Positions 9,258-62,981 of a DNA stretch of 64,000 bases are shown in pieces. The position numbers and the translations under genes are program-made. The stretch comes from Vicinamibacterales bacterium. GTDB taxonomy: Bacteria > Acidobacteriota > Vicinamibacteria > Vicinamibacterales > CAVVIG01. The notes beneath the pieces were generated by a model. The model saw nothing but the letters and a program-made list of their open reading frames with translations. It was not told the DNA's origin and searched no databases. The stretch spans positions 12,385-76,384 of the forward strand of contig DASREL010000107.1 in NCBI GenBank assembly GCA_035652075.1, read 5' to 3'. Position 1 is the first letter of the stretch. The number at the start of each line of letters is the position of its first letter.

Positions 9258-10462
9258 TGGTCGATCGGATCGCGGACAAGGTTCGGGCGGGCGAGCGGGT
9301 GAGCGCGGACGAAGCGCTCGCGCTCTATCGTCACGCGCCGACGGCGTTGCTGGGTCGGCTCGCCGACGGTATCCGCGCGCGCAAACATCCGGACGGCTAC
9401 GTCACCTACATCATCGACCGCAACGTCAACTACACGAACGTCTGCGTGGCGAAGTGCAACTTCTGCGCGTTCTACCGTCCGGTCGGATCGTCGGAAGGGT
9501 ACGTCCTCGGCTTCGATGAGTTGTTCCGCAAGATCGACGAGACGATCGCCGTCGGCGGTGTGCAGCTGCTGCTGCAGGGCGGACACAATCCCGACCTGCC
9601 GCTGTCGTGGTACGAAGATCTCTTTCGCGCCGTCAAGGAACGGTATCCGACATTCAAGCTGCACGCGCTCTCGCCGCCGGAAGTCATCCATCTCTCGCGG
9701 CTGACGCAACTGCCGGTTCCCGCGATCATCGATCGGCTGATCGCCGCCGGTCTGGACAGCATCCCCGGCGGCGGAGCGGAAATCCTCGTCGACCGCGTTC
9801 GCAAAGAGCTGCACTGTTACGGCAAAGCGACCGCCGACGAATGGCTCGACGTGATGCGCCACGCGCACAGCAAAGGTCTGCGCACGACGGCGACGATGAT
9901 GTACGGCACCGTCGAGACCGACGAAGAGCGGCTCGAACACTTGCTGCGGCTGCGCGCGCTGCAGGACGAGACCGGCGGCTTCACCGCGTTCATCACGTGG
10001 AGTTATCAACCGTCGAACACCGAGCTGGCCGGCAGCGAAGCGACCGGTATCGACTACCTCCGCACGCTCGCGATCGCGCGCATCGTCCTCGACAACTTCG
10101 ACAACCTGCAGGCCTCGTGGGTGACGCAAGGGGGGAAGGTCGGTCAGCTGAGCCTCGCGTTCGGCGCGAACGACATGGGCAGCGTGATGATCGAAGAGAA
10201 CGTCGTCCGCGCTGCCGGCGCGGCGTATTGCATGGACGAAGTCGAAATCGTCCGCAACGTCGAGGACGCCGGGTTCATCCCGAAGCGCCGCAACATGCAC
10301 TACGAGATCCTGGGCGATCCGATTTGCCGCGAGCGCAGCGTGCCGCGGATGCTGGAGCTTGCGACCGCACGCGCCGACGGCGACACCCATGTGCCGGACG
10401 AACTCGTCAACTACGAGGCGCGCAGCCGCGCCGGCAAGCAGCTCCGTATCATTCGCAATTGA
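9257..10462 (+). CDS. mqnC: Radical SAM menaquinone enzyme of the MqnC/MqnE family (MqnC-like by motif)
   Basis: VTYIIDRNVNYTNVCVAKCNFCAFYR contains CxxxCxxC. TAATG overlap with mqnA. I cannot separate MqnC from MqnE without an alignment. Confidence 0.75.
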   Translation: MVDRIADKVRAGERVSADEALALYRHAPTALLGRLADGIRARKHPDGYVTYIIDRNVNYTNVCVAKCNFCAFYRPVGSSEGYVLGFDELFRKIDETIAVGGVQLLLQGGHNPDLPLSWYEDLFRAVKERYPTFKLHALSPPEVIHLSRLTQLPVPAIIDRLIAAGLDSIPGGGAEILVDRVRKELHCYGKATADEWLDVMRHAHSKGLRTTATMMYGTVETDEERLEHLLRLRALQDETGGFTAFITWSYQPSNTELAGSEATGIDYLRTLAIARIVLDNFDNLQASWVTQGGKVGQLSLAFGANDMGSVMIEENVVRAAGAAYCMDEVEIVRNVEDAGFIPKRRNMHYEILGDPICRERSVPRMLELATARADGDTHVPDELVNYEARSRAGKQLRIIRN

Positions 10463-11670
10463 TCCGATACCGCGCCGCCTGGGTCCTGCCGATCAGCGAG
10501 CCGCCGATTCGTGACGGTTGGATCGCGATCGATCGCGGCCGCGTGATCGCCACCGGACGCCGCTCGGCAAACACCAGCGAGGCCGAAATCGATCTCGGAT
10601 ACGTGGCGGTGATGCCCGGTCTCGTCAACGCGCACACCCATCTCGAGCTGTCGCACATGCGCGACGAGGTGCCGCCCGCACCCGCCTTCGTCAGTTGGAT
10701 TCGCGGCGTCATGGAGGCGCGGCGCAAGCGGCCCGATCCGATGTCGACGGAAATCCTCGACGGCATCGACATTGGGATCGCGGAAGCGATCGCGACCGGG
10801 ACCGCGGTCGTCGGCGACATCAGCAACACGCTCGCGACGTTCGCGCCCTTGAGCCGCAGTCCCCTTGCCGGCGTCGTCTTCTACGAGTTGATTCGCTTCA
10901 ACGCGGCGGACCCGCAGGCGGTGGTGGAGCAGGCCGCCGACGCGATCGCGAAGCTACCGGCCACCGATCGTGTCCGCGCGAGCCTTGCCGCGCATGCGCC
11001 GTATTCGGTCGCGCCGCTGATGTTTCGCGCGATTCGCGAAGCGGTCGACCGCGATCCGTTCGCGCCGACGAGCGTGCACCTGTCCGAGTCGCAGGAAGAA
11101 GTGGAGTTCATACGAACCGGCGGCGGCCCGTGGCGCGCGCTGCTCGAAGCCATCGGCTCCTGGGATCCGAAGTGGGTGCCGCCGGGCGGATCCCCGGTCC
11201 AGTTCCTGGACGACTGCGGATTCCTCGACGGACGCGTGCTGGCCGTCCACGGCGTGCAGATGTCGGGGGCGGACCTCGAACGGCTGGCGAAGAAGGACGT
11301 GACGCTCGTCACCTGTCCGCGCAGCAACGGCCACACGGGCGCTGGCGCGCCGCCGATCGCCGATTTCTATCGCTCAGGCGTGAAAGTCGCCGTCGGGACC
11401 GACAGCCTCGCCAGCACACCTGACTTGAACGTCTTTGCCGAGGTCGCGACGATGCGTGCGTTGGCGCCGGGAGTGCCAGCAGCGGCGCTCCTCGAGAGCG
11501 CGACGATCGTCGGCGCGCGGGCGCTCGGCTTCGACGCCGATTACGGCACGATCGACGCGGGGAAGCGGGCGCGGCTGCTCGCGGTCGACATCCCGATCGA
11601 GGTCGATGATGTGGAAGAATATTTGGTGAGCGGGATAGAGCAGCGGCAGGTGCGATGGATAGACGGATAG
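10459..11670 (+). CDS. Amidohydrolase-superfamily deaminase (candidate aminodeoxyfutalosine deaminase)
   Basis: TTG start gives MIRYRAAWVLP...MPGLVNAHTHLELS (HxH metal motif), then HLSES and TDSLAS. TTGA overlap with the preceding gene. The specific function is inferred from context. Confidence 0.7.
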   Translation: MIRYRAAWVLPISEPPIRDGWIAIDRGRVIATGRRSANTSEAEIDLGYVAVMPGLVNAHTHLELSHMRDEVPPAPAFVSWIRGVMEARRKRPDPMSTEILDGIDIGIAEAIATGTAVVGDISNTLATFAPLSRSPLAGVVFYELIRFNAADPQAVVEQAADAIAKLPATDRVRASLAAHAPYSVAPLMFRAIREAVDRDPFAPTSVHLSESQEEVEFIRTGGGPWRALLEAIGSWDPKWVPPGGSPVQFLDDCGFLDGRVLAVHGVQMSGADLERLAKKDVTLVTCPRSNGHTGAGAPPIADFYRSGVKVAVGTDSLASTPDLNVFAEVATMRALAPGVPAAALLESATIVGARALGFDADYGTIDAGKRARLLAVDIPIEVDDVEEYLVSGIEQRQVRWIDG

Positions 11671-11681
11671 ACGAGAACAGT

Positions 11682-11822
11682 GGTGCAGAAGTGCACGGTG
11701 CACAGGTGCATGGTGCTTTGGTGCACGGTGCACCGGTGCAGGGCGCACCCGTGCACGCTGCACGCAGCACCCTGCACCCTGCACGCAGCACCCTGCACCC
11801 TGCACGCGGCACCCTGCACCAC
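11682..11822. repeat. GTGCAC-core array hairpin (about 18 units, period 7-8)
   Basis: The left half is GGTGCAN units and the right half is NTGCACC units, for example ctgcaccctgcacgcagcaccctgcaccctgcacg. It starts 12 nt after the amidohydrolase stop. Confidence 0.9.
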
Positions 11823-12665
11823 CTCCGCACGTACGCGTCTTTCGTCCGCATCAGCCACTCCGTCTTCGCGCTGCCGTTTGCGCTGGCCGGCGCGCTGCTC
11901 GCGGCCCAGCAATCGCCGTTGACGCTGCGCACGGTGATCTGGATTCTGGTCGCAATGGTTGGCGCGCGCAGTGCCGCGATGGGGTTCAACCGCCTCGTCG
12001 ACGCGCGCATCGACGCGTTGAACCCGCGGACCGCGAATCGCGAGCTGCCGCGCGGCGCGATGACCGCGCGCGAGGCGACCGCGTTCGTCACGATTGCATC
12101 CGCGGTGTTCGTCGTCGCGGCGTGGCAACTCAATCCGATCTGTTTCGCGCTGTCGCCGGTGGCGCTCGCGATCGTGTTCTGGTATTCGCTCGCGAAGCGC
12201 TACACGACATGGACGCAGCTGTTTCTCGGCCTCGCGATGGCGGTCGCGCCGGTTGGCGGATGGCTCGCGGTCGGCGGTCGCGGCGGCTGGCAGCCGTGGC
12301 TGCTCGCGCTCGCGATCGGCACGTGGGTCGGCGGGTTCGACGTTCTCTACGCCTGCCAGGATCTCGATTTCGATCGCGCGCACGGATTGCGATCCATTCC
12401 CGTCCGCTTCGGCGTGCGGCAGTCACTCGCGATTTCGCGATGCATGCACGTCGTCGCCGTCCTGTGTCTCGCAGCGCTGGGTGTCGTGACGACGCTCGGT
12501 CCGATCTACTTCGGCGGCGTCGCGATCGTCGCCGCGCTGCTGGTGTACGAGCAGTCGCTCGTCAGCGCCGAGGATCTCTCGCAGGTCAAACGGGCGTTCG
12601 ATCTGAACGGCTACGTCGGCATCCTCTACTTGCTCGTCCTCGTCGTCGCGTTATATGCACGATGA
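11751..12665 (+). CDS. UbiA-family prenyltransferase (MqnP-type)
   Basis: LRTYASFVRISHSVFALPFALAGALL and GFNRLVDARIDALNPRTANRELP (NxxxDxxxD-type motif), followed by multiple TM helices. The start is ambiguous. All in-frame ATG/GTG candidates (11655 to 11751) lie in or before the repeat. Confidence 0.8.
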   Translation: MHAARSTLHPARSTLHPARGTLHHLRTYASFVRISHSVFALPFALAGALLAAQQSPLTLRTVIWILVAMVGARSAAMGFNRLVDARIDALNPRTANRELPRGAMTAREATAFVTIASAVFVVAAWQLNPICFALSPVALAIVFWYSLAKRYTTWTQLFLGLAMAVAPVGGWLAVGGRGGWQPWLLALAIGTWVGGFDVLYACQDLDFDRAHGLRSIPVRFGVRQSLAISRCMHVVAVLCLAALGVVTTLGPIYFGGVAIVAALLVYEQSLVSAEDLSQVKRAFDLNGYVGILYLLVLVVALYAR

Positions 12666-13377
12666 CGGCACCGACGTCTCGAAGACGCCGGCGCGCATCG
12701 CGGGGATGTTCGATGCGATCGCCGGCCGCTACGACTTCCTCAATCATTTTCTGAGCGGAGGGATCGATCGCCGCTGGCGCGCCCGCGCGATCCGGTCGCT
12801 CGCGTTGACCGGGCGCGAAACGGTTCTCGACGTCTGCACCGGCACTGGCGACCTGGCGATCGAGGCGATGCAGGCGGCGCCGTCGGCCGCCCGGGTCGTC
12901 GGCGTCGATTTCGCCGGCGCCATGCTCGCGATTGGTCACGACAAATTGCGGCGTGCTGGCGCCGTGGAGCGCATCACGTTACTGCGCGGCGATGCGATGC
13001 GCATCCCGTTGGCCGATCGATCGGTCGACGGCGTCACCGTCGGTTTTGGCATTCGCAACGTGGCCGATGTGCCGGCGGCGTGCCGCGAGATGTTGCGCGT
13101 GTTGAAACCGGGTGGACGGATCGCGATTCTCGAATTTGCCGTGCCGACGACGCCGGTGTTCCGCGACGTGTTCGGGTGGTACATGCATACCGTGTTGCCA
13201 CGACTCGGACGTGCGATTTCGCGACACCAGGGCGCATACAAATACTTGCAAGCGTCGATCGACGCGTGGCTCACTCCTGCTGAGTTCGTGACAATTCTTC
13301 GACAATCTGGATTTGTCGAGATTCATGCAGTCCCACTGACCCTTGGCGCCGTCTTTCTTTATGAGGCTCGACGGTAA
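12655..13377 (+). CDS. ubiE: Demethylmenaquinone/ubiquinone C-methyltransferase UbiE/MenG
   Basis: MFDAIAGRYDFLNHFLSGGIDRRWR and VLDVCTGTGDLA SAM-binding motif. Confidence 0.9.
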   Translation: MHDDGTDVSKTPARIAGMFDAIAGRYDFLNHFLSGGIDRRWRARAIRSLALTGRETVLDVCTGTGDLAIEAMQAAPSAARVVGVDFAGAMLAIGHDKLRRAGAVERITLLRGDAMRIPLADRSVDGVTVGFGIRNVADVPAACREMLRVLKPGGRIAILEFAVPTTPVFRDVFGWYMHTVLPRLGRAISRHQGAYKYLQASIDAWLTPAEFVTILRQSGFVEIHAVPLTLGAVFLYEARR

Positions 13378-15592: not shown

Positions 15593-16770
15593 TGTTCACG
15601 CGCGCCATCGTCATCGTCATGGACAGCGTCGGCATCGGCGAGTTGCCGGATGCGGCGGACTACGGAGATCAGGGCAGCAACACGGTCGCCAACATCGACC
15701 GTCGCGTCCCGCTGAGGGTCCCAACCCTCCGCGCGCTGGGGTTAGACCAAATCGTCAGACTGAACAGTCTGACTAAGAAGTCTGACCAAATAGTCAGACT
15801 TCCCGCGTTCGGGAAGATGGCGGAGGCGTCGGCAGGGAAAGATTCGGTCACTGGACATTGGGAGATGATGGGAATTGTCCTGGACAAGGCATTTCCGACA
15901 TTCCCTGACGGGTTTTCGAACGACGTGTTGGAAGAATTTGCCCGCCAGACGGGACGCGGTGTCCTCGGCAACAAGGCCGCTTCGGGGACCGCAATCATCG
16001 ACGAGCTCGGTCCCGAGCACATGCGGACCGGCAAGCTGATTGTCTACACGTCGGCCGACAGCGTCTTCCAAATCGCCGCGCACGAGGACATCGTGCCCGT
16101 CCCCGAGCTGTATCGCGCCTGCGAAGTCGCCTACCGCATCGTCGGCGAAGGCCTCGGGGTGGGCCGCGTCATCGCGCGACCCTTCGTCGGCGCGCCGGGC
16201 AGCTTCAAGCGGACCGCGAATCGTCACGATTACGCGCTGCCGCCGTCGGGCGAAACGTTTCTGGACCGCGCGAAGGCCGCCGGCATCCCGGTCGTCGCGA
16301 TCGGCAAGATCGAGGATCTCTTCGCGGGACGCGGGATCACGAAGGCGATCCACACGAAGAGCGACGATGACGGGATGGACAACGTCGAGCGCCAGATGGC
16401 GGAGCTGGACCGCGGGTTCATCTTCACGAACCTGGTCGACTTCGACACGCAGTACGGCCACCGCAACGACACCGAAGGCTACGCGCGCAACCTCGAACGC
16501 TTCGACGCGCGGCTCGCCGCGATCCTGCCGCGCCTGCGCCAGGACGATCTCCTCATCGTGACCGCGGACCACGGGAACGATCCGACGACGCCGAGCACCG
16601 ATCACGCGCGCGAGTATGTGCCGCTGCTCGTCACCGGCACGCGCGTGCGCGAGAATGTCGACCTCGGTATTCGCCGCACCTTCGCCGACGTCGCGCAGAC
16701 GCTGGCCGAGAACTTCGGCGTCGGCCGTCTTGCGAACGGCACCAGCTTCCTCAGTACAATCAGCGCGTGA
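15592..16770 (+). CDS. deoB: Phosphopentomutase DeoB
   Basis: VIVMDSVGIGELPDA, GKDSVTGHWEMMG, TADHGNDPT. TAGTG overlap with hfq. Confidence 0.9.
   Translation: MFTRAIVIVMDSVGIGELPDAADYGDQGSNTVANIDRRVPLRVPTLRALGLDQIVRLNSLTKKSDQIVRLPAFGKMAEASAGKDSVTGHWEMMGIVLDKAFPTFPDGFSNDVLEEFARQTGRGVLGNKAASGTAIIDELGPEHMRTGKLIVYTSADSVFQIAAHEDIVPVPELYRACEVAYRIVGEGLGVGRVIARPFVGAPGSFKRTANRHDYALPPSGETFLDRAKAAGIPVVAIGKIEDLFAGRGITKAIHTKSDDDGMDNVERQMAELDRGFIFTNLVDFDTQYGHRNDTEGYARNLERFDARLAAILPRLRQDDLLIVTADHGNDPTTPSTDHAREYVPLLVTGTRVRENVDLGIRRTFADVAQTLAENFGVGRLANGTSFLSTISA
15741..15803. repeat. Intragenic 13-nt-period array of GTCWGAC heptamers inside deoB
   Basis: gttagac(15741) gtcagac(15754) gtctgac(15767) gtctgac(15780) gtcagac(15793). 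The array is locally AT-rich and in frame, and encodes DQIVRLNSLTKKSDQIVRL. Confidence 0.9.
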
Positions 16771-24478: not shown

Positions 24479-24573
24479 GTATTGAGGATTGCGGATTGAG
24501 GATTGCGGATTGATTGTTGATTTACCCCGCCAATCGTCAATAAATCCGCAATCCGCATTCCTCAATCCGCAAT
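24479..24573. repeat. ATTGMGG array palindrome (family copy 1)
   Basis: attgagg attgcgg attgagg attgcgg attgatt gttgatt ... aataaat ccgcaat ccgcatt cctcaat ccgcaat. It fills the whole etfA-etfD spacer. Confidence 0.9.
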
Positions 24574-37850: not shown

Positions 37851-37944
37851 GTAATGCGGATTGAGGATTGCGGATTGCGGATTGATTGTCGATTCCGCAA
37901 ATCACCAATAAATCCGCAATCCTCAATCCGCAATCCGCAATGAC
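37851..37944. repeat. ATTGMGG array palindrome (family copy 2)
   Basis: aatgcgg attgagg attgcgg attgcgg attgatt gtcgatt ... aataaat ccgcaat cctcaat ccgcaat ccgcaat gac. It shares the core ATTGATTGTYGATT and the end CAATAAATCCGCAAT...CCGCAATGAC with copy 1. Confidence 0.9.
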
Positions 37945-59424: not shown

Positions 59425-59443
59425 GCAGGGCGAGTATATCAGT

Positions 59444-59548
59444 GTGGTGCTGAGTGCACCGTGCAGGGTGCAGCGTGCTTTCGGTGCGCGGTCCGCACGT
59501 TGCACCAGGTGCACCTTGCACGCTGCACCCTGCACTTTTGCACCGCCA
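59444..59548. repeat. GTGCAS-core array hairpin (second locus of this word)
   Basis: ggtgct gagtgcac cgtgcag ggtgcag cgtgctt ... ttgcac caggtgcac cttgcac gctgcac cctgcac ttttgcac. It lies in the kinase/rsmE divergent spacer. Confidence 0.85.
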
Positions 59549-59550
59549 CC

Positions 59551-59556
59551 TATAAT
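59551..59556 (+). promoter_or_regulatory. Perfect TATAAT hexamer 7 nt upstream of the rsmE GTG
   Basis: cacc TATAAT ccgtccc GTG. There is no Shine-Dalgarno-like sequence in between. Confidence 0.35.
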
Positions 59557-59563
59557 CCGTCCC

Positions 59564-60301
59564 GTGCACAGGTTCTTCGCGCCCGACCTGGATCCCGGCG
59601 ACGAGTTCGTCGTCCTCCCGCGCGACGAGGCGGAGCATCTCACGCGGGTGTTGCGGCTCGGCGTCGGCGACACGGTGGCGGTCTTCAACGGACGCGGACA
59701 GGAGTTCGCCGCGCGGGTGGCGAGCGCAGTGCGGCGCGATGTGCGCGTGCAACTGCAGTCGCGGATCGAGCCGGCGGCCGAGGCCGACGTGCCGATCACG
59801 CTGGTGCAAGCCGTCATCAAAGGCGAAAAGATGGACGACGTCGTCCGCGACGCGGTGATGCTCGGCGTCGCGGCGGTGCAGCCGATCGTGTCGAAGCGTG
59901 CGGAGACGACCGTTGCGGCGCTGATTCGGACGAACCGCGTGGATCGGTGGAGGCGCGTGGCGCTCGCGTCGGCGAAACAGTCGCGCCGCGCAGTCCTGCC
60001 CGAGATCCGCACGCCGCTGACGCTGGAGAATTATCTCGCCGAGCCGCCGACCGCGCTGCGCGTGATGTTCGTCGAACCTGCGGCCGGGGGAGGCGAGTCG
60101 GTCGCTGCGCTGCAGCGAGAGCCGATTCCGTCAGACGCCGCGATTCTCGTTGGCCCTGAAGGTGGATGGACGGAGCATGAATGCGCGATGGCGCGCGAAC
60201 AGCAGGTGCGACTGATGACGCTCGGTCATCGCACGCTGCGCGCCGACGCGGTGCCGATCGCCGCGATCAGCGTGCTGCAGTTTTTGTGGGGCGATTTGTA
60301 G
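59564..60301 (+). CDS. rsmE: 16S rRNA (uracil1498-N3)-methyltransferase RsmE
   Basis: VHRFFAPDL start, HLTRVLRL, and a C-terminal GPEGGW motif. Confidence 0.9.
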   Translation: MHRFFAPDLDPGDEFVVLPRDEAEHLTRVLRLGVGDTVAVFNGRGQEFAARVASAVRRDVRVQLQSRIEPAAEADVPITLVQAVIKGEKMDDVVRDAVMLGVAAVQPIVSKRAETTVAALIRTNRVDRWRRVALASAKQSRRAVLPEIRTPLTLENYLAEPPTALRVMFVEPAAGGGESVAALQREPIPSDAAILVGPEGGWTEHECAMAREQQVRLMTLGHRTLRADAVPIAAISVLQFLWGDL

Positions 60302-62115: not shown

Positions 62116-62913
62116 TCACGATTTTTTCAACAACAGGCCGACCCATGAATCCTCTTCGCGTTCCCACACGACCTCGGCCGCCGCGAACGCGCGGACGACC
62201 GTGTCGCGTTCGTGGGACTGCAGGCCGCTCAGGATCAAGGCGCCTCCAGACCTGACGGTGGCGAGTAGTGTCGGAGCCGATCGCTCGAGCAAGGCGCCCG
62301 TCAGATTCGCGAGGACCACGTCAGCAGGCGACAGCGCCGCCGCGCCGAGGTCGGCGACGTCGAACCGCACGTGCCGCACGTCGGGATTGAGCTCGAGGTT
62401 CTCGCGTGCCGACTGGATCGCATCCGGATCCAAATCGATCCCGATCGCGGACGCCGCGCCGAGCCGATCAGCCGCAATCGCCAGCACTCCAGAGCCTGTG
62501 CCGACGTCCAGGGCAGTCTTGCCGCCAAGATCGATCTGTTGAAGCGCGTCGAGACACAGCCTGGTCGTCGCGTGATGTCCGGTGCCGAAGCCCATCGACG
62601 GGCGGATTACGACAACGATGTCGGGATTCGGGGTTCGGGATTCGGGATTCGGAAGAACGGTGATGCGGCCAACGGTGATCGGCGCGAGGCCTTCCTGCGA
62701 TCGCCGTGCCCAGTCTTCGTCGGATACGTCGATCGGCGTAACGGCAAAACGCTGCGACAGGGAAGCGCGAGCCGCGTCGCGCGACGCCGCATCGACGAAA
62801 AACACGCGAAACCCCTCGTCGTGCCCTTCGATCGCCGTTGGAGAGAAGTCGTCGACGGCCACCAAGACAAGGTCGGACTCGCCGACCACATCCAGCGCCG
62901 GGTAATAACGCAC
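62116..62913 (-). CDS. prmA: Ribosomal protein L11 methyltransferase PrmA
   Basis: MGFGTGHHATT and LDVGTGSGVLAIAA motifs. The start is set at GTG 62913 (MRYYPALDV). The track start at 62988 would read through a 9-nt array and overlap dnaJ. Confidence 0.85.
   Translation of the reverse strand: MRYYPALDVVGESDLVLVAVDDFSPTAIEGHDEGFRVFFVDAASRDAARASLSQRFAVTPIDVSDEDWARRSQEGLAPITVGRITVLPNPESRTPNPDIVVVIRPSMGFGTGHHATTRLCLDALQQIDLGGKTALDVGTGSGVLAIAADRLGAASAIGIDLDPDAIQSARENLELNPDVRHVRFDVADLGAAALSPADVVLANLTGALLERSAPTLLATVRSGGALILSGLQSHERDTVVRAFAAAEVVWEREEDSWVGLLLKKS
62623..62650. repeat. Intragenic heptamer array GGGATTC x4 inside prmA
   Basis: gggattc ggggttc gggattc gggattc. It encodes PNPESRTPNP in a variable loop. 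Confidence 0.85.
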
Positions 62914-62981
62914 CCTAGGCACCCCAAGCACGATTGGCACCCCAGGCACCTTAGGCACCCCAGGCACCCTACGCACCCTGT
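62910..62981. repeat. 9-nt tandem array GCACCCYAG x8
   Basis: gcaccctag gcaccccaa gcacgattg gcaccccag gcaccttag gcaccccag gcaccctac gcaccctgt. It lies between the dnaJ stop and the prmA start. Confidence 0.9.

What the first reader, a model, noticed from the sequence alone, without database searches (positions are those of the whole stretch)
11682..11822. 140-nt GTGCAC-core array lies between the amidohydrolase and the MqnP-type prenyltransferase and must be partly translated
About 18 units with period 7-8 are present. The left half is GGTGCAN and the right half is NTGCACC, and GTGCAC is itself palindromic. Every in-frame ATG or GTG start candidate for the UbiA-family gene (11655 to 11751) lies upstream of or inside the array. 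The conserved domain starts only at LRTYASFVRISHSVF (about 11821). So at least about 23 residues (VHAARSTLHPARSTLHPARGTLHH) are array-encoded, unless a non-canonical start is used. The same core word forms a second array at 59444-59548.
Basis: partly seen in the sequence, partly recalled or inferred. Interest (0 to 1): 0.65.

Follow-up and report, generated by a model that had tools for sequence, protein, structure and literature searches.

The report
Repeat hairpin translated into prenyltransferase start
A 143-base palindromic repeat, one of about 20 copies of a species-specific element in this soil acidobacterium, landed in the first codons of a vitamin-K2 (menaquinone) prenyltransferase gene, so the enzyme can now only be made by starting translation in or before the repeat and reading through it.

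Summary
Window 11680-11822 is a 143-nt imperfect palindrome: GGTGCAN words on the left, NTGCACC words on the right, with termini GTGGTGCA...TGCACCAC.

- **Position.** It begins 9 nt after the amidohydrolase stop (TAG 11668-11670) and abuts the first conserved mqnP codons (LRTY, 11823).
- **Start codons.** No in-frame ATG, GTG or TTG lies between 11751 and residue 89.
- **Orthologs.** About 200 start 13-16 residues before the HSVFALPF motif. Both informative congeners lack the array.
- **Selection.** The codons just after the array are under purifying selection.

So array-encoded residues must be translated: at least 24 with a canonical start, or 3 with CTG 11814.

A diverged relative (L031) has the same insertion 48 nt longer. 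Its ATG overlaps the upstream stop (TGATG) and is in frame through the array. I therefore favour coupled initiation at ATG 11655, giving a 56-residue extension (about 0.5).

The element is not a one-off. The family is confined to this species among 41 relatives. It is translated in an MFS transporter loop and supplies the N-terminus of a secreted hydrolase.

A gene-bearing copy (C147/C99) carries a PF05635 four-helix-bundle gene between the same word arrays. Ten of 11 such genes here sit between arrays, nine between inverted arrays of their own word. The mobilisation mechanism is unknown.

The parts
10459..11670 (+). Amidohydrolase (aminofutalosine-deaminase-like), the upstream gene of the operon. 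It ends ...VRWIDG with TAG at 11668-11670.
   Evidence: The gene call in the near-identical assembly L034 (1305-2516) maps to these window coordinates. NCBIfam gives the aminofutalosine deaminase family at 137 bits, below its cut-off, and TRZ/ATZ hydrolase at 159 bits. The stop was read directly.
11655..11657 (+). ATG, the favoured mqnP start. It overlaps the amidohydrolase by 16 nt, lies outside the hairpin, and is in frame with mqnP through the whole array.
   Evidence: It was called as the start (336 aa) in the ENA assembly. L031 has GTG at the same position and an ATG 12 nt further on that overlaps the stop (TGATG).
11680..11750 (.). Left arm of the element: terminus GTGGTGCA, then nine GTGCA-type words alternating 8 and 7 nt (15-nt super-period). 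It encodes GAEVHGAQVHGALVHGAPVQGAP in the mqnP frame.
11751..11822 (.). Right arm: ten TGCAC-type words in three 21-nt super-units, ending in terminus TGCACCAC. It encodes VHAARSTLHPARSTLHPARGTLHH. GTG 11751 sits at the hairpin apex and CTG 11814 in the last unit.
   Evidence: (period 21, 94%).
11823..12665 (+). Conserved body of the UbiA-family (MqnP-type) prenyltransferase, from LRTYASFVRISHSVFALPFA to the stop.
   Evidence: TIGR01475 scores 302 bits against a cut-off of 181. The MqnP models score 276-287 bits and begin at LRTY. It is 83% identical to the congener G002. The first 32 codons are under purifying selection.
12655..13377 (+). ubiE/menG methyltransferase, the downstream gene, overlapping the mqnP end.
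   Evidence: NCBIfam UbiE scores 236 bits against a cut-off of 216.
59444..59548 (.). Second copy of the same word family, with degenerate termini. It lies between a divergent Ser/Thr-kinase-like gene (minus strand, ATG about 59426) and an rsmE-like gene (GTG 59566), and is not translated there.

Best explanation
**Shown.**
- The 143-nt array is a gene-less copy of a dispersed, species-specific palindromic element. The element is built of 7-9-nt GGTGCAN words with termini GTGGTGCA...TGCACCAC.
- In relatives the mqnP start codon abuts or nearly abuts the amidohydrolase stop. In the common ancestor of this species and L031, the element inserted about 10 nt after that stop. It therefore landed inside the first five or so codons of mqnP.
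- The element has no stop codon in any frame and carries a GTG every 7-8 nt, so the gene stayed expressible.
- No canonical start remains between the array and the conserved first transmembrane helix. Translation must begin in or before the array.

**Inferred.**
- Initiation is coupled to termination of the amidohydrolase and uses ATG 11655. This ATG lies outside the hairpin, in a stretch kept unfolded by ribosomes on the upstream gene.
- The ribosome then reads through both arms and adds a 56-residue His/Ala/Gly/Pro-rich, probably disordered, cytoplasmic extension.

**The element family.** It has a gene-bearing copy in which the same word arrays flank a PF05635 (23S-rRNA-IVS / Avd-like four-helix-bundle) gene. 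How copies spread is unknown.
For: **Insertion.**
- Congener G003 reads WIDG-TAG-ATG GTC GGA GAA CGT CTG AAA ACC TAC. Congener G002 reads TGA cacccGTG ctc GTT CCA AAA CTC CGA ACG TAC. Neither has an array.
- About 80% of 217 homologs have 13-16 residues before HSVFALPF.
- The family profiles begin at LRTY.

**Family.**
- About 20 loci carry the words, and nine further arrays carry both exact termini besides this one, at 109-157 nt.
- The pattern occurs 46 times in G000 and 0-1 times in congeners.

**Translation through the array.**
- L031 is about 92% identical in the protein body. It has the same junctions but an array 48 nt longer: 27 nt more in the left arm and 21 nt more in the right arm, both multiples of 3.
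- Its ATG overlaps the upstream stop (TGATG) and is in frame with mqnP.
- Lengths of the other complete elements fall in all three classes modulo 3, so slippage is not inherently 3-periodic.
- ATG 11655 is in frame in G000.

**Precedents in the same genome.**
- A half-array is translated inside the central loop of an MFS transporter at C59.
- At C90, ATG|GTGGTGCAA plus a 25-codon array runs in frame into the signal-peptide core of a secreted hydrolase. Orthologs of that gene start MRALFVAL... with no array.

**Cargo link.**
- C147:27008-27295 is a PF05635 gene with a GGTGCAG array on its left. The contig ends 90 nt after the gene, and contig C99 starts with the matching right arm.
- Ten of 11 PF05635 genes in G000 are array-flanked, nine on both sides by inverted arrays of their own word. 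Six of 7 homolog loci in relatives are likewise array-flanked.
Against: - No experimental initiation data exist.
- In-frame agreement in two lineages has about a 1-in-9 chance under no constraint, so the evidence is suggestive only.
- In G000 the codon homologous to L031's ATG is ATA.
- The 15-nt super-period also occurs in untranslated copies, so it is not evidence of frame selection.
- Calculated opening energies did not separate the candidate starts. The apex GTG 11751 is about as accessible as ATG 11655.
- NCBI's annotation chose GTG 11721.
- If the hairpin is cut by RNase III, as 23S IVS stems are, an upstream start could not serve.
Confidence: 0.5

Rival explanations
1. Translation starts at an internal GTG of the array. 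The candidates are the hairpin-apex GTG 11751, giving a 24-residue extension, and GTG 11721 as annotated by NCBI, giving 34 residues. The left arm would then be an untranslated intercistronic hairpin, possibly processed at the RNA level.
For: - GTG 11751 and its context CGCACCCGTGCACGCTGCAC are conserved in L031 and in frame there.
- Its opening energy is among the lowest: 21.9 kcal/mol in G000 and 15.6 in L031.
- Each GGTGCAN word places a GGTG, which can pair with the 16S anti-Shine-Dalgarno CACC, 4-5 nt before the next GTG (read from the sequence).
- The NCBI gene call uses GTG 11721.
Against: - The start would sit inside a stem of about -93 kcal/mol.
- No Shine-Dalgarno-like motif is at a conserved spacing before 11751 in L031.
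- This reading does not explain why the upstream ATG is in frame in both lineages despite a 48-nt length difference.
Confidence: 0.25
2. Translation starts at a near-cognate CTG in the right arm. The best candidate is CTG 11814, which gives MHHLRTY... and restores the ancestral N-terminal length. The array would then act only as a 5' leader or intercistronic hairpin.
For: - A start at CTG 11814 gives 14 residues before the HSVFALPF motif, matching the ortholog mode of 13-16.
- The CTG CAC CAC CTC CGC context is identical in L031.
- L031 has canonical in-frame TTG codons at the positions of G000's earlier CTGs.
Against: - CTG initiation is rare in bacteria (my own knowledge).
- No Shine-Dalgarno-like motif precedes it, and it lies in the base of the stem.
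- The start codon is still array-encoded.
- In the parallel case at C90, an ATG sits exactly at the array boundary and is in frame.
Confidence: 0.15
3. The array is a contingency locus. Slippage by 7-8 nt would shift the frame between the start and mqnP and switch menaquinone prenylation on and off.
For: A tandem repeat whose unit length is not a multiple of 3 sits in the 5' coding region.
Against: - A second strain at 99.8% identity has exactly the same array length.
- GTG codons occur in two of the three frames, so many slips would still find a start.
- The diverged relative keeps the frame.
- mqnP is the only close copy in the genome.
Confidence: 0.04
4. The gene is dead, or the array is an assembly artefact.
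For: The genome is a 227-contig metagenome-assembled genome with 5.7% contamination.
Against: - Three independent assemblies carry the array.
- The frame is intact, and the coding sequence shows an excess of synonymous changes.
- The whole operon is syntenic with relatives.
Confidence: 0.02

Closest known systems
REP / REPIN elements and REPs inside ORFs (Di Nocera et al. 2013, PMC3733652; Bertels and Rainey 2011, PMC3116915)
   Same: - Both are short dispersed palindromes lying mostly just after stop codons between co-directional or convergent genes.
- The outward-facing GTGG head is a described GTAG variant.
- Some REP copies lie within ORFs, most often at the N-terminus, and REP clusters encoding 43-82 residues are reported.
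   Different: - The arms are tandem arrays of 7-9-nt words, and the elements are 109-157 nt rather than 20-40-bp stems.
- None of the four RAYT-like genes of this genome is flanked by GTGCA words.
- The gene-bearing copy carries a PF05635 gene instead.
- For N-terminal REPs the paper cautions that translation may start downstream. Here no downstream canonical start exists.
Rickettsia palindromic elements (RPE) inserted in frame in protein genes (my own knowledge; cited in PMC3733652)
   Same: A palindromic selfish repeat is tolerated inside coding sequence and translated as an extra peptide segment.
   Different: There is no sequence relation. RPEs are not word arrays. Here the insertion also displaced the start codon.
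23S rRNA intervening sequences carrying a PF05635 (IVS protein / Avd-like four-helix-bundle) ORF
   Same: A long inverted-repeat stem encloses a single small PF05635 gene. This holds for 10 of 11 such genes in this genome and 6 of 7 homolog loci in relatives.
   Different: - The elements are not in rRNA.
- The stems are tandem word arrays, and each gene has its own word.
- Gene-less copies are scattered between and inside protein genes.
- RNase III excision was not tested.
Cyanobacterial STRR heptamers and Xanthomonas/Nostoc GGGNATC repeats (Rehm et al. 2015, PMC4692102)
   Same: Both are abundant 7-nt tandem repeats, over-represented between aligned ORFs and within 50 bp of gene ends, variable in copy number, and transcribed.
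   Different: - GGTGCAN has no G-tracts for a quadruplex.
- These copies have fixed termini and a two-armed palindromic plan.
- No cargo gene or translated copy is described for the Xanthomonas and Nostoc repeats.
Borg tandem repeats that create disordered protein regions (bioRxiv 10.1101/2022.05.18.492195)
   Same: Fast-evolving tandem repeats add low-complexity, probably disordered segments to proteins (abstract).
   Different: I took only the abstract of that preprint. It describes Borg repeats as direct tandem repeats that form locally. These are dispersed palindromic elements with 7-9-nt units.

Membership tests
REP/REPIN-RAYT system | Conserved GT[AG]G tetranucleotide at the outer end of the palindrome | tested here: met
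   GTGG lies at both outer ends (GTGGTGCA...TGCACCAC) in this element and nine other arrays that carry both exact termini. GTGG is a described variant.
REP/REPIN-RAYT system | A single-copy RAYT gene flanked by the same repeat | tested here: not met
   The genome has four RAYT-like genes whose best NCBIfam hit is NF047646. They are flanked by GTCTGAC-type arrays, GGTGTCAGA words or an ordinary REP, and none by GTGCA words. The genome is only 94% complete.
REP/REPIN-RAYT system | Unit is a simple 20-40-bp stem-loop | tested here: not met
   The elements are 109-157 nt long, and their arms are tandem 7-9-nt words.
PF05635 (IVS-protein) cassette with inverted arms | Inverted repeats of the same word enclose a PF05635 ORF | tested here: met
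   - This applies to the family, not to this gene-less copy.
- C147:27008-27295 scores 68 bits against a cut-off of 34 and has a GGTGCAG array on its left. The matching right arm is on contig C99, so the join is inferred rather than assembled.
- Ten of 11 PF05635 genes in G000 are array-flanked, nine on both sides by inverted arrays of their own word.
23S rRNA intervening sequence | Inserted in 23S rRNA and excised by RNase III | tested here: not met
   Location: the copies lie between or inside protein genes. RNase III excision cannot be tested with these tools.
Heptamer SSRs of the Xanthomonas/Nostoc type | Four or more G-tracts able to form a G-quadruplex | tested here: not met
   The word GGTGCAN has no regular GGG tracts.
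SSR contingency (phase-variation) locus | Repeat-number polymorphism between close strains that changes the frame | tested here: not met
   L034 is 99.8% identical and has the same array length. L031 differs by 48 nt and stays in frame. Only two comparisons were possible.
MqnP (menaquinone prenyltransferase, futalosine route) | Match to the UbiA-like or MqnP family models | tested here: inconclusive
   TIGR01475 UbiA-like passes at 302 bits against a cut-off of 181. The three MqnP models score 229-287 bits, below their exception-level cut-offs of 375-430.
MqnP (menaquinone prenyltransferase, futalosine route) | Encoded in a futalosine-pathway gene cluster | tested here: met
The gene is flanked by a radical-SAM/CofH_C gene, the amidohydrolase and ubiE.

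The most novel reading that the evidence does not exclude
The word-array hairpins of these Acidobacteriota may be non-autonomous copies of an undescribed class of mobile cassette.
- The only gene of the cassette is an Avd/IVS-type four-helix-bundle protein paired with its own 7-9-nt word.
- The words are free of stop codons, and in this family rich in GTG and GGTG. Copies can therefore settle in the first codons or loops of genes.
- There they would act as portable start-codon and disordered-segment donors, as seen for mqnP, a secreted hydrolase and an MFS transporter in this genome.
Probability: 0.25. Interest if true: 0.8.

Novelty: new variant of a known kind. Interest (0 to 1): 0.5.

Why it matters
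- **Annotation.** The locus shows that in these repeat-laden soil bacteria a start codon can lie inside a selfish repeat. Three pipelines chose three different starts for this gene: 314, 336 and 362 aa.
- **Genome evolution.** It gives a clean, datable example of a palindromic repeat inserted into the 5' end of a presumably important biosynthetic gene. The insertion has been kept in frame across two diverged lineages.
- **The repeats themselves.** It ties one word family directly to a gene-bearing copy with a PF05635 gene. That makes the origin of the roughly 820 short-period tandem arrays of this genome experimentally approachable. One test is whether each four-helix-bundle protein binds its own word.

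Tried and rejected
- **Read mapping.** The tool for RNA and DNA reads was closed, so I have no expression, 5'-end or length-heterogeneity data.
- **Other strains.** An exact look-up of the neighbouring UbiE protein found nothing.
- **Junction scans.** Scans of metagenome contigs and genome contigs for the right junction gave one hit each. The metagenome hit is a chance match on reading. I did not read the other, in a Streptomyces scaffold, and take it for chance from the organism.
- **Protein search on residues 1-80.** No further carriers turned up beyond this species and L031.
- **Opening-energy ranking of candidate starts.** It was not discriminating, because everything is folded in an isolated GC-rich RNA.
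- **Super-periods of 15 and 21 nt as evidence of frame selection.**
  - The 15-nt period also occurs in untranslated copies, so I dropped it.
  - The 21-nt period is kept only as weak support.
- **Openness of the reading frame.**
  - Most frames of the family's copies are open.
  - For random sequence of this length and GC content I estimate about 40% by hand.
  - Openness therefore says nothing about translation.
- **RAYT mobilisation of this family.**
  - No RAYT-like gene is flanked by GTGCA words.
  - RAYT genes are absent from relatives that have arrays.
- **Known RNA or signal.** There is no Rfam family, promoter or intrinsic terminator.
- **Junction as an insertion hot spot.**
  - Five of 30 relatives carry arrays of other words at this junction.
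  - That is about the genome-wide density of 821 arrays in 5.6 Mb, so I found no evidence of a hot spot.
- **Literature.** I found no paper in the held library on PF05635 cassettes with array arms.

Full report
**1. What is there**

Window 11680-11822 is a 143-nt imperfect palindrome.
- **Left arm (11680-11750).** It starts GTGGTGCA and continues with nine GTGCA-type words that alternate 8 and 7 nt.
- **Right arm (11751-11822).** It holds ten TGCAC-type words in three 21-nt super-units and ends TGCACCAC.
- **Fold.** As RNA it folds at -93.1 kcal/mol, with z = -4.99 against dinucleotide shuffles.
- **Known signals.** Nothing in Rfam matches, and there is no promoter-like or terminator-like site.

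The genes on either side are as follows.
- The upstream gene is an amidohydrolase of the aminofutalosine-deaminase/TRZ-ATZ kind. It ends at TAG 11668-11670.
- The downstream gene is a UbiA-like prenyltransferase. TIGR01475 scores 302 bits against a cut-off of 181. The MqnP models score 276-287 bits, below their cut-offs.
- ubiE follows.
- The family profiles start aligning at LRTY, that is at 11823, the first base after the array.

**2. Where can translation start?**

In the mqnP frame the canonical start codons are ATG 11655, GTG 11691, 11706, 11721, 11736 and 11751, and TTG 11718. The next one is TTG 11919 at residue 89, which would delete the conserved first helix.

That helix is translated. 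Over the 32 codons after the array:

| Compared with G000 | Synonymous differences | Non-synonymous differences |
|---|---|---|
| L031 | 8 | 1 |
| G002 | 13 | 3 |

So the start lies in or before the array.
- The only way to a shorter extension is a near-cognate CTG at 11772, 11793 or 11814. Each of these is itself part of an array word.

**3. It is an insertion into the gene, not a spacer**

- All 40 relatives searched have the gene, and homology starts at query residues 52-56 in nearly all full-length matches.
- Two congeners have no array:
  - G003 reads ...WIDG TAG ATG GTC GGA GAA CGT CTG AAA ACC TAC.
  - G002 reads TGA cacccGTG ctc GTT CCA AAA CTC CGA ACG TAC.
- Among 217 homologs from the 5.8-billion-protein collection, the stretch before HSVFALPF is 13-16 residues in about 80%.
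- Only three proteins carry the array-encoded extension:
  - the window's own annotated protein (314 aa, from GTG 11721);
  - a 336-aa call from an ENA assembly of the same species;
  - a 362-aa protein from a Logan contig (L031).
- Five relatives carry arrays of quite different words at the same junction, but those I read through keep an ATG after or at the end of the array.
- Five of 30 is about the genome-wide density of such arrays, so I see no insertion hot spot.

**4. The diverged relative**

L031 is about 92% identical over the conserved protein, and 9 of the first 32 codons differ. It has the same left and right junctions, so the insertion predates the split.
- Its array is 48 nt longer: 27 nt more in the left arm and one more 21-nt super-unit in the right arm.
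- The amidohydrolase there ends TGA. An ATG overlaps that stop (TGATG), the classic coupling arrangement. This ATG is in frame with mqnP through about 190 nt of array.
- In G000 the homologous codon is ATA 11667, also in frame, and ATG 11655 lies four codons upstream.
- The other complete elements of the family have lengths in all three classes modulo 3. Keeping the frame in two lineages therefore has roughly a 1-in-9 chance if nothing constrains it.
- The same-species assembly L034 has 13 mismatches in 6011 nt, an identical array length and one substitution in the last word. This argues against rapid phase variation.

**5. Which start?**

I favour ATG 11655 at about 0.5, for these reasons.
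- It is outside the hairpin.
- It lies in RNA that is kept open by ribosomes finishing the amidohydrolase.
- It is in frame.
- It matches the coupled arrangement seen in L031 and in array-less relatives.

This is inference. The points against it:
- Opening-energy calculations did not separate the candidates, and the apex GTG 11751 is also fairly accessible.
- NCBI's annotation chose GTG 11721.
- CTG 11814 would restore the ancestral N-terminal length of 14 residues before the motif.

An internal GTG (0.25) and a CTG (0.15) therefore remain live rivals.

**6. The element is one of a family, and other copies are translated too**

- About 20 loci in the genome carry GTGCA-type arrays. Nine further arrays besides this one have both exact termini, at 109-157 nt.
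- Many begin 6-16 nt after a stop codon.
- The three-word pattern occurs 46 times in this genome. It occurs 0-1 times in each of three congeners and 8 times at two loci in one other genus. It never occurs in the backwards control in this genome. The family is therefore a recent, lineage-specific expansion.
- Three other copies touch coding sequence:
  - At C59 a half-array forms 28 residues of the central loop of an MFS transporter. Orthologs have an unrelated, shorter loop there.
  - At C90 a secreted hydrolase reads ATG|GTGGTGCAA, then a 25-codon array, then the signal-peptide core LFVALAALAL. Its orthologs start MRALFVALASAV (G003) and MRAACAALAV (G002) with no array. This is the same situation as mqnP, with an in-frame ATG exactly at the array boundary.
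  - At C45 the first word supplies the last codons and the stop of a gene.

**7. Where the family comes from**

I first suspected a REP/RAYT system, and then followed a lead to a different cargo gene.
- **RAYT.** The genome has four RAYT-like genes.
  - Two are flanked by tandem GTCTGAC-word arrays, but none by GTGCA words.
  - RAYT genes are missing from relatives that do have arrays.
- **PF05635.** I followed a lead from earlier notes of this scan and searched for PF05635, the 23S-rRNA-IVS / Avd-like four-helix-bundle family.
  - The genome has 11 such genes.
  - Ten of them are flanked by tandem arrays. Nine have a left array and an inverted right array of their own word, such as AGGCTGG, GGGCAGGAG, TCGTGAG, GCCTAGGGT, GTTGGCA, ATGGCTG, GCGGATT, AACTCTC and TAATTGGG.
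- **The GTGCA copy.**
  - The tenth, C147:27008-27295, has a GGTGCAG array on its left.
  - The contig ends 90 nt after the gene, and contig C99 begins with the matching right arm, ending CTGCACCAC. That join is inferred, not assembled.
- **Relatives.**
  - The C147 protein has no homolog above 51% identity in 40 relatives and none in congeners G002 and G003, the same narrow distribution as its word.
  - Six of 7 homolog loci in relatives are array-flanked.
  - The closest homolog (51%) has GTGCA(C/T)-core words.

So the mqnP array is best read as a gene-less copy of an array-armed PF05635 cassette. How such copies move is unknown.

The genome holds 821 short-period tandem arrays, mostly of period 7 or 9.

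**8. Comparison with what is known**

- **REP/REPIN elements.**
  - The element resembles them in size class, position after stop codons and the GTGG head.
  - REPs within ORFs, mainly at the N-terminus, are described, as are REP clusters encoding 43-82 residues (PMC3733652).
  - It fails two defining tests: no cognate RAYT, and no simple 20-40-bp stem.
- **Rickettsia RPEs.** It works like them (translated palindromes) but is unrelated in sequence.
- **Xanthomonas/Nostoc and STRR heptamers.** It shares the tandem-heptamer habit but has no G-tracts. Unlike those repeats it has fixed termini (PMC4692102).
- **23S rRNA intervening sequences.** The gene-bearing copy resembles them, but it is not in rRNA.

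I rate it a new variant of a known kind.

**9. Limits**

- The genome is a 227-contig MAG.
- Frame conservation rests on two lineages plus one parallel gene.

Noticed in passing
G000 contigs C101, C219 (two), C122, C125, C178, C147, C116, C187, C227 (not in the window): Ten of the 11 PF05635 (23S-rRNA-IVS / Avd-like four-helix-bundle) genes of this genome are flanked by tandem arrays, nine by a left array and an inverted right array of their own 7-9-nt word. Several of these words are the abundant dispersed families. AATCCGC has 92 arrays, and copies lie at window 24481-24573 and 37855-37941. GCACCCTAG has a copy at window 62910-62979.
   Followed up: partly
G000 C157:12106-13036 and C147:5034-6091: Two RAYT-like (Y1 transposase) genes are flanked by tandem arrays of GTCTGAC-core words with periods of 13 and 11 nt. 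At C147 the two arrays are inverted relative to each other. The 13-nt GTCWGAC array inside deoB at window 15754-15800 has the same word type.
   Followed up: partly
G000 C90:109643-109717 (minus strand): A secreted alpha/beta-hydrolase-like gene has a GTGCA array between an in-frame boundary ATG and its signal-peptide core. Orthologs have a two-residue n-region and no array.
   Followed up: yes
G000 C59:8990-9069: A half-array of GCACC words is translated as 28 residues of the central cytoplasmic loop of an MFS transporter.
   Followed up: yes
G000 C45:2865-2885: The first word of a GTGCA element supplies the last five codons (VQALS) and the TAA stop of an aminotransferase-like gene. The other end of the element lies 13 nt from the stop of a convergent gene.
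   Followed up: no
L031:352-393: The relative's MqnP has a 14-residue insertion (LHPIAQSPRAGGPG) in the loop after the first helix. It is absent from G000 and is not an array.
   Followed up: no
window 59426-59566: The second GTGCA array fills nearly the whole divergent spacer between a kinase-like gene and an rsmE-like gene. A TATAAT lies just after its right end and a TATACT-like box (minus strand) just before its left end, so the array occupies the place where -35 elements would be.
   Followed up: no
whole genome G000: The genome has 821 short-period tandem arrays (period 6-13, at least 3 copies), about one per 7 kb. They are dominated by periods 7 (329 arrays) and 9 (343 arrays) and fall into dozens of word families.
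   Followed up: partly
L007, L009, L018, L030 (relatives G022, G024, G021, G023): The same amidohydrolase-mqnP junction carries arrays of unrelated words (AATCTGC, GATTTGA, CACAGTT) in other genera. In the three I read through, an ATG is retained after or at the end of the array.
   Followed up: partly
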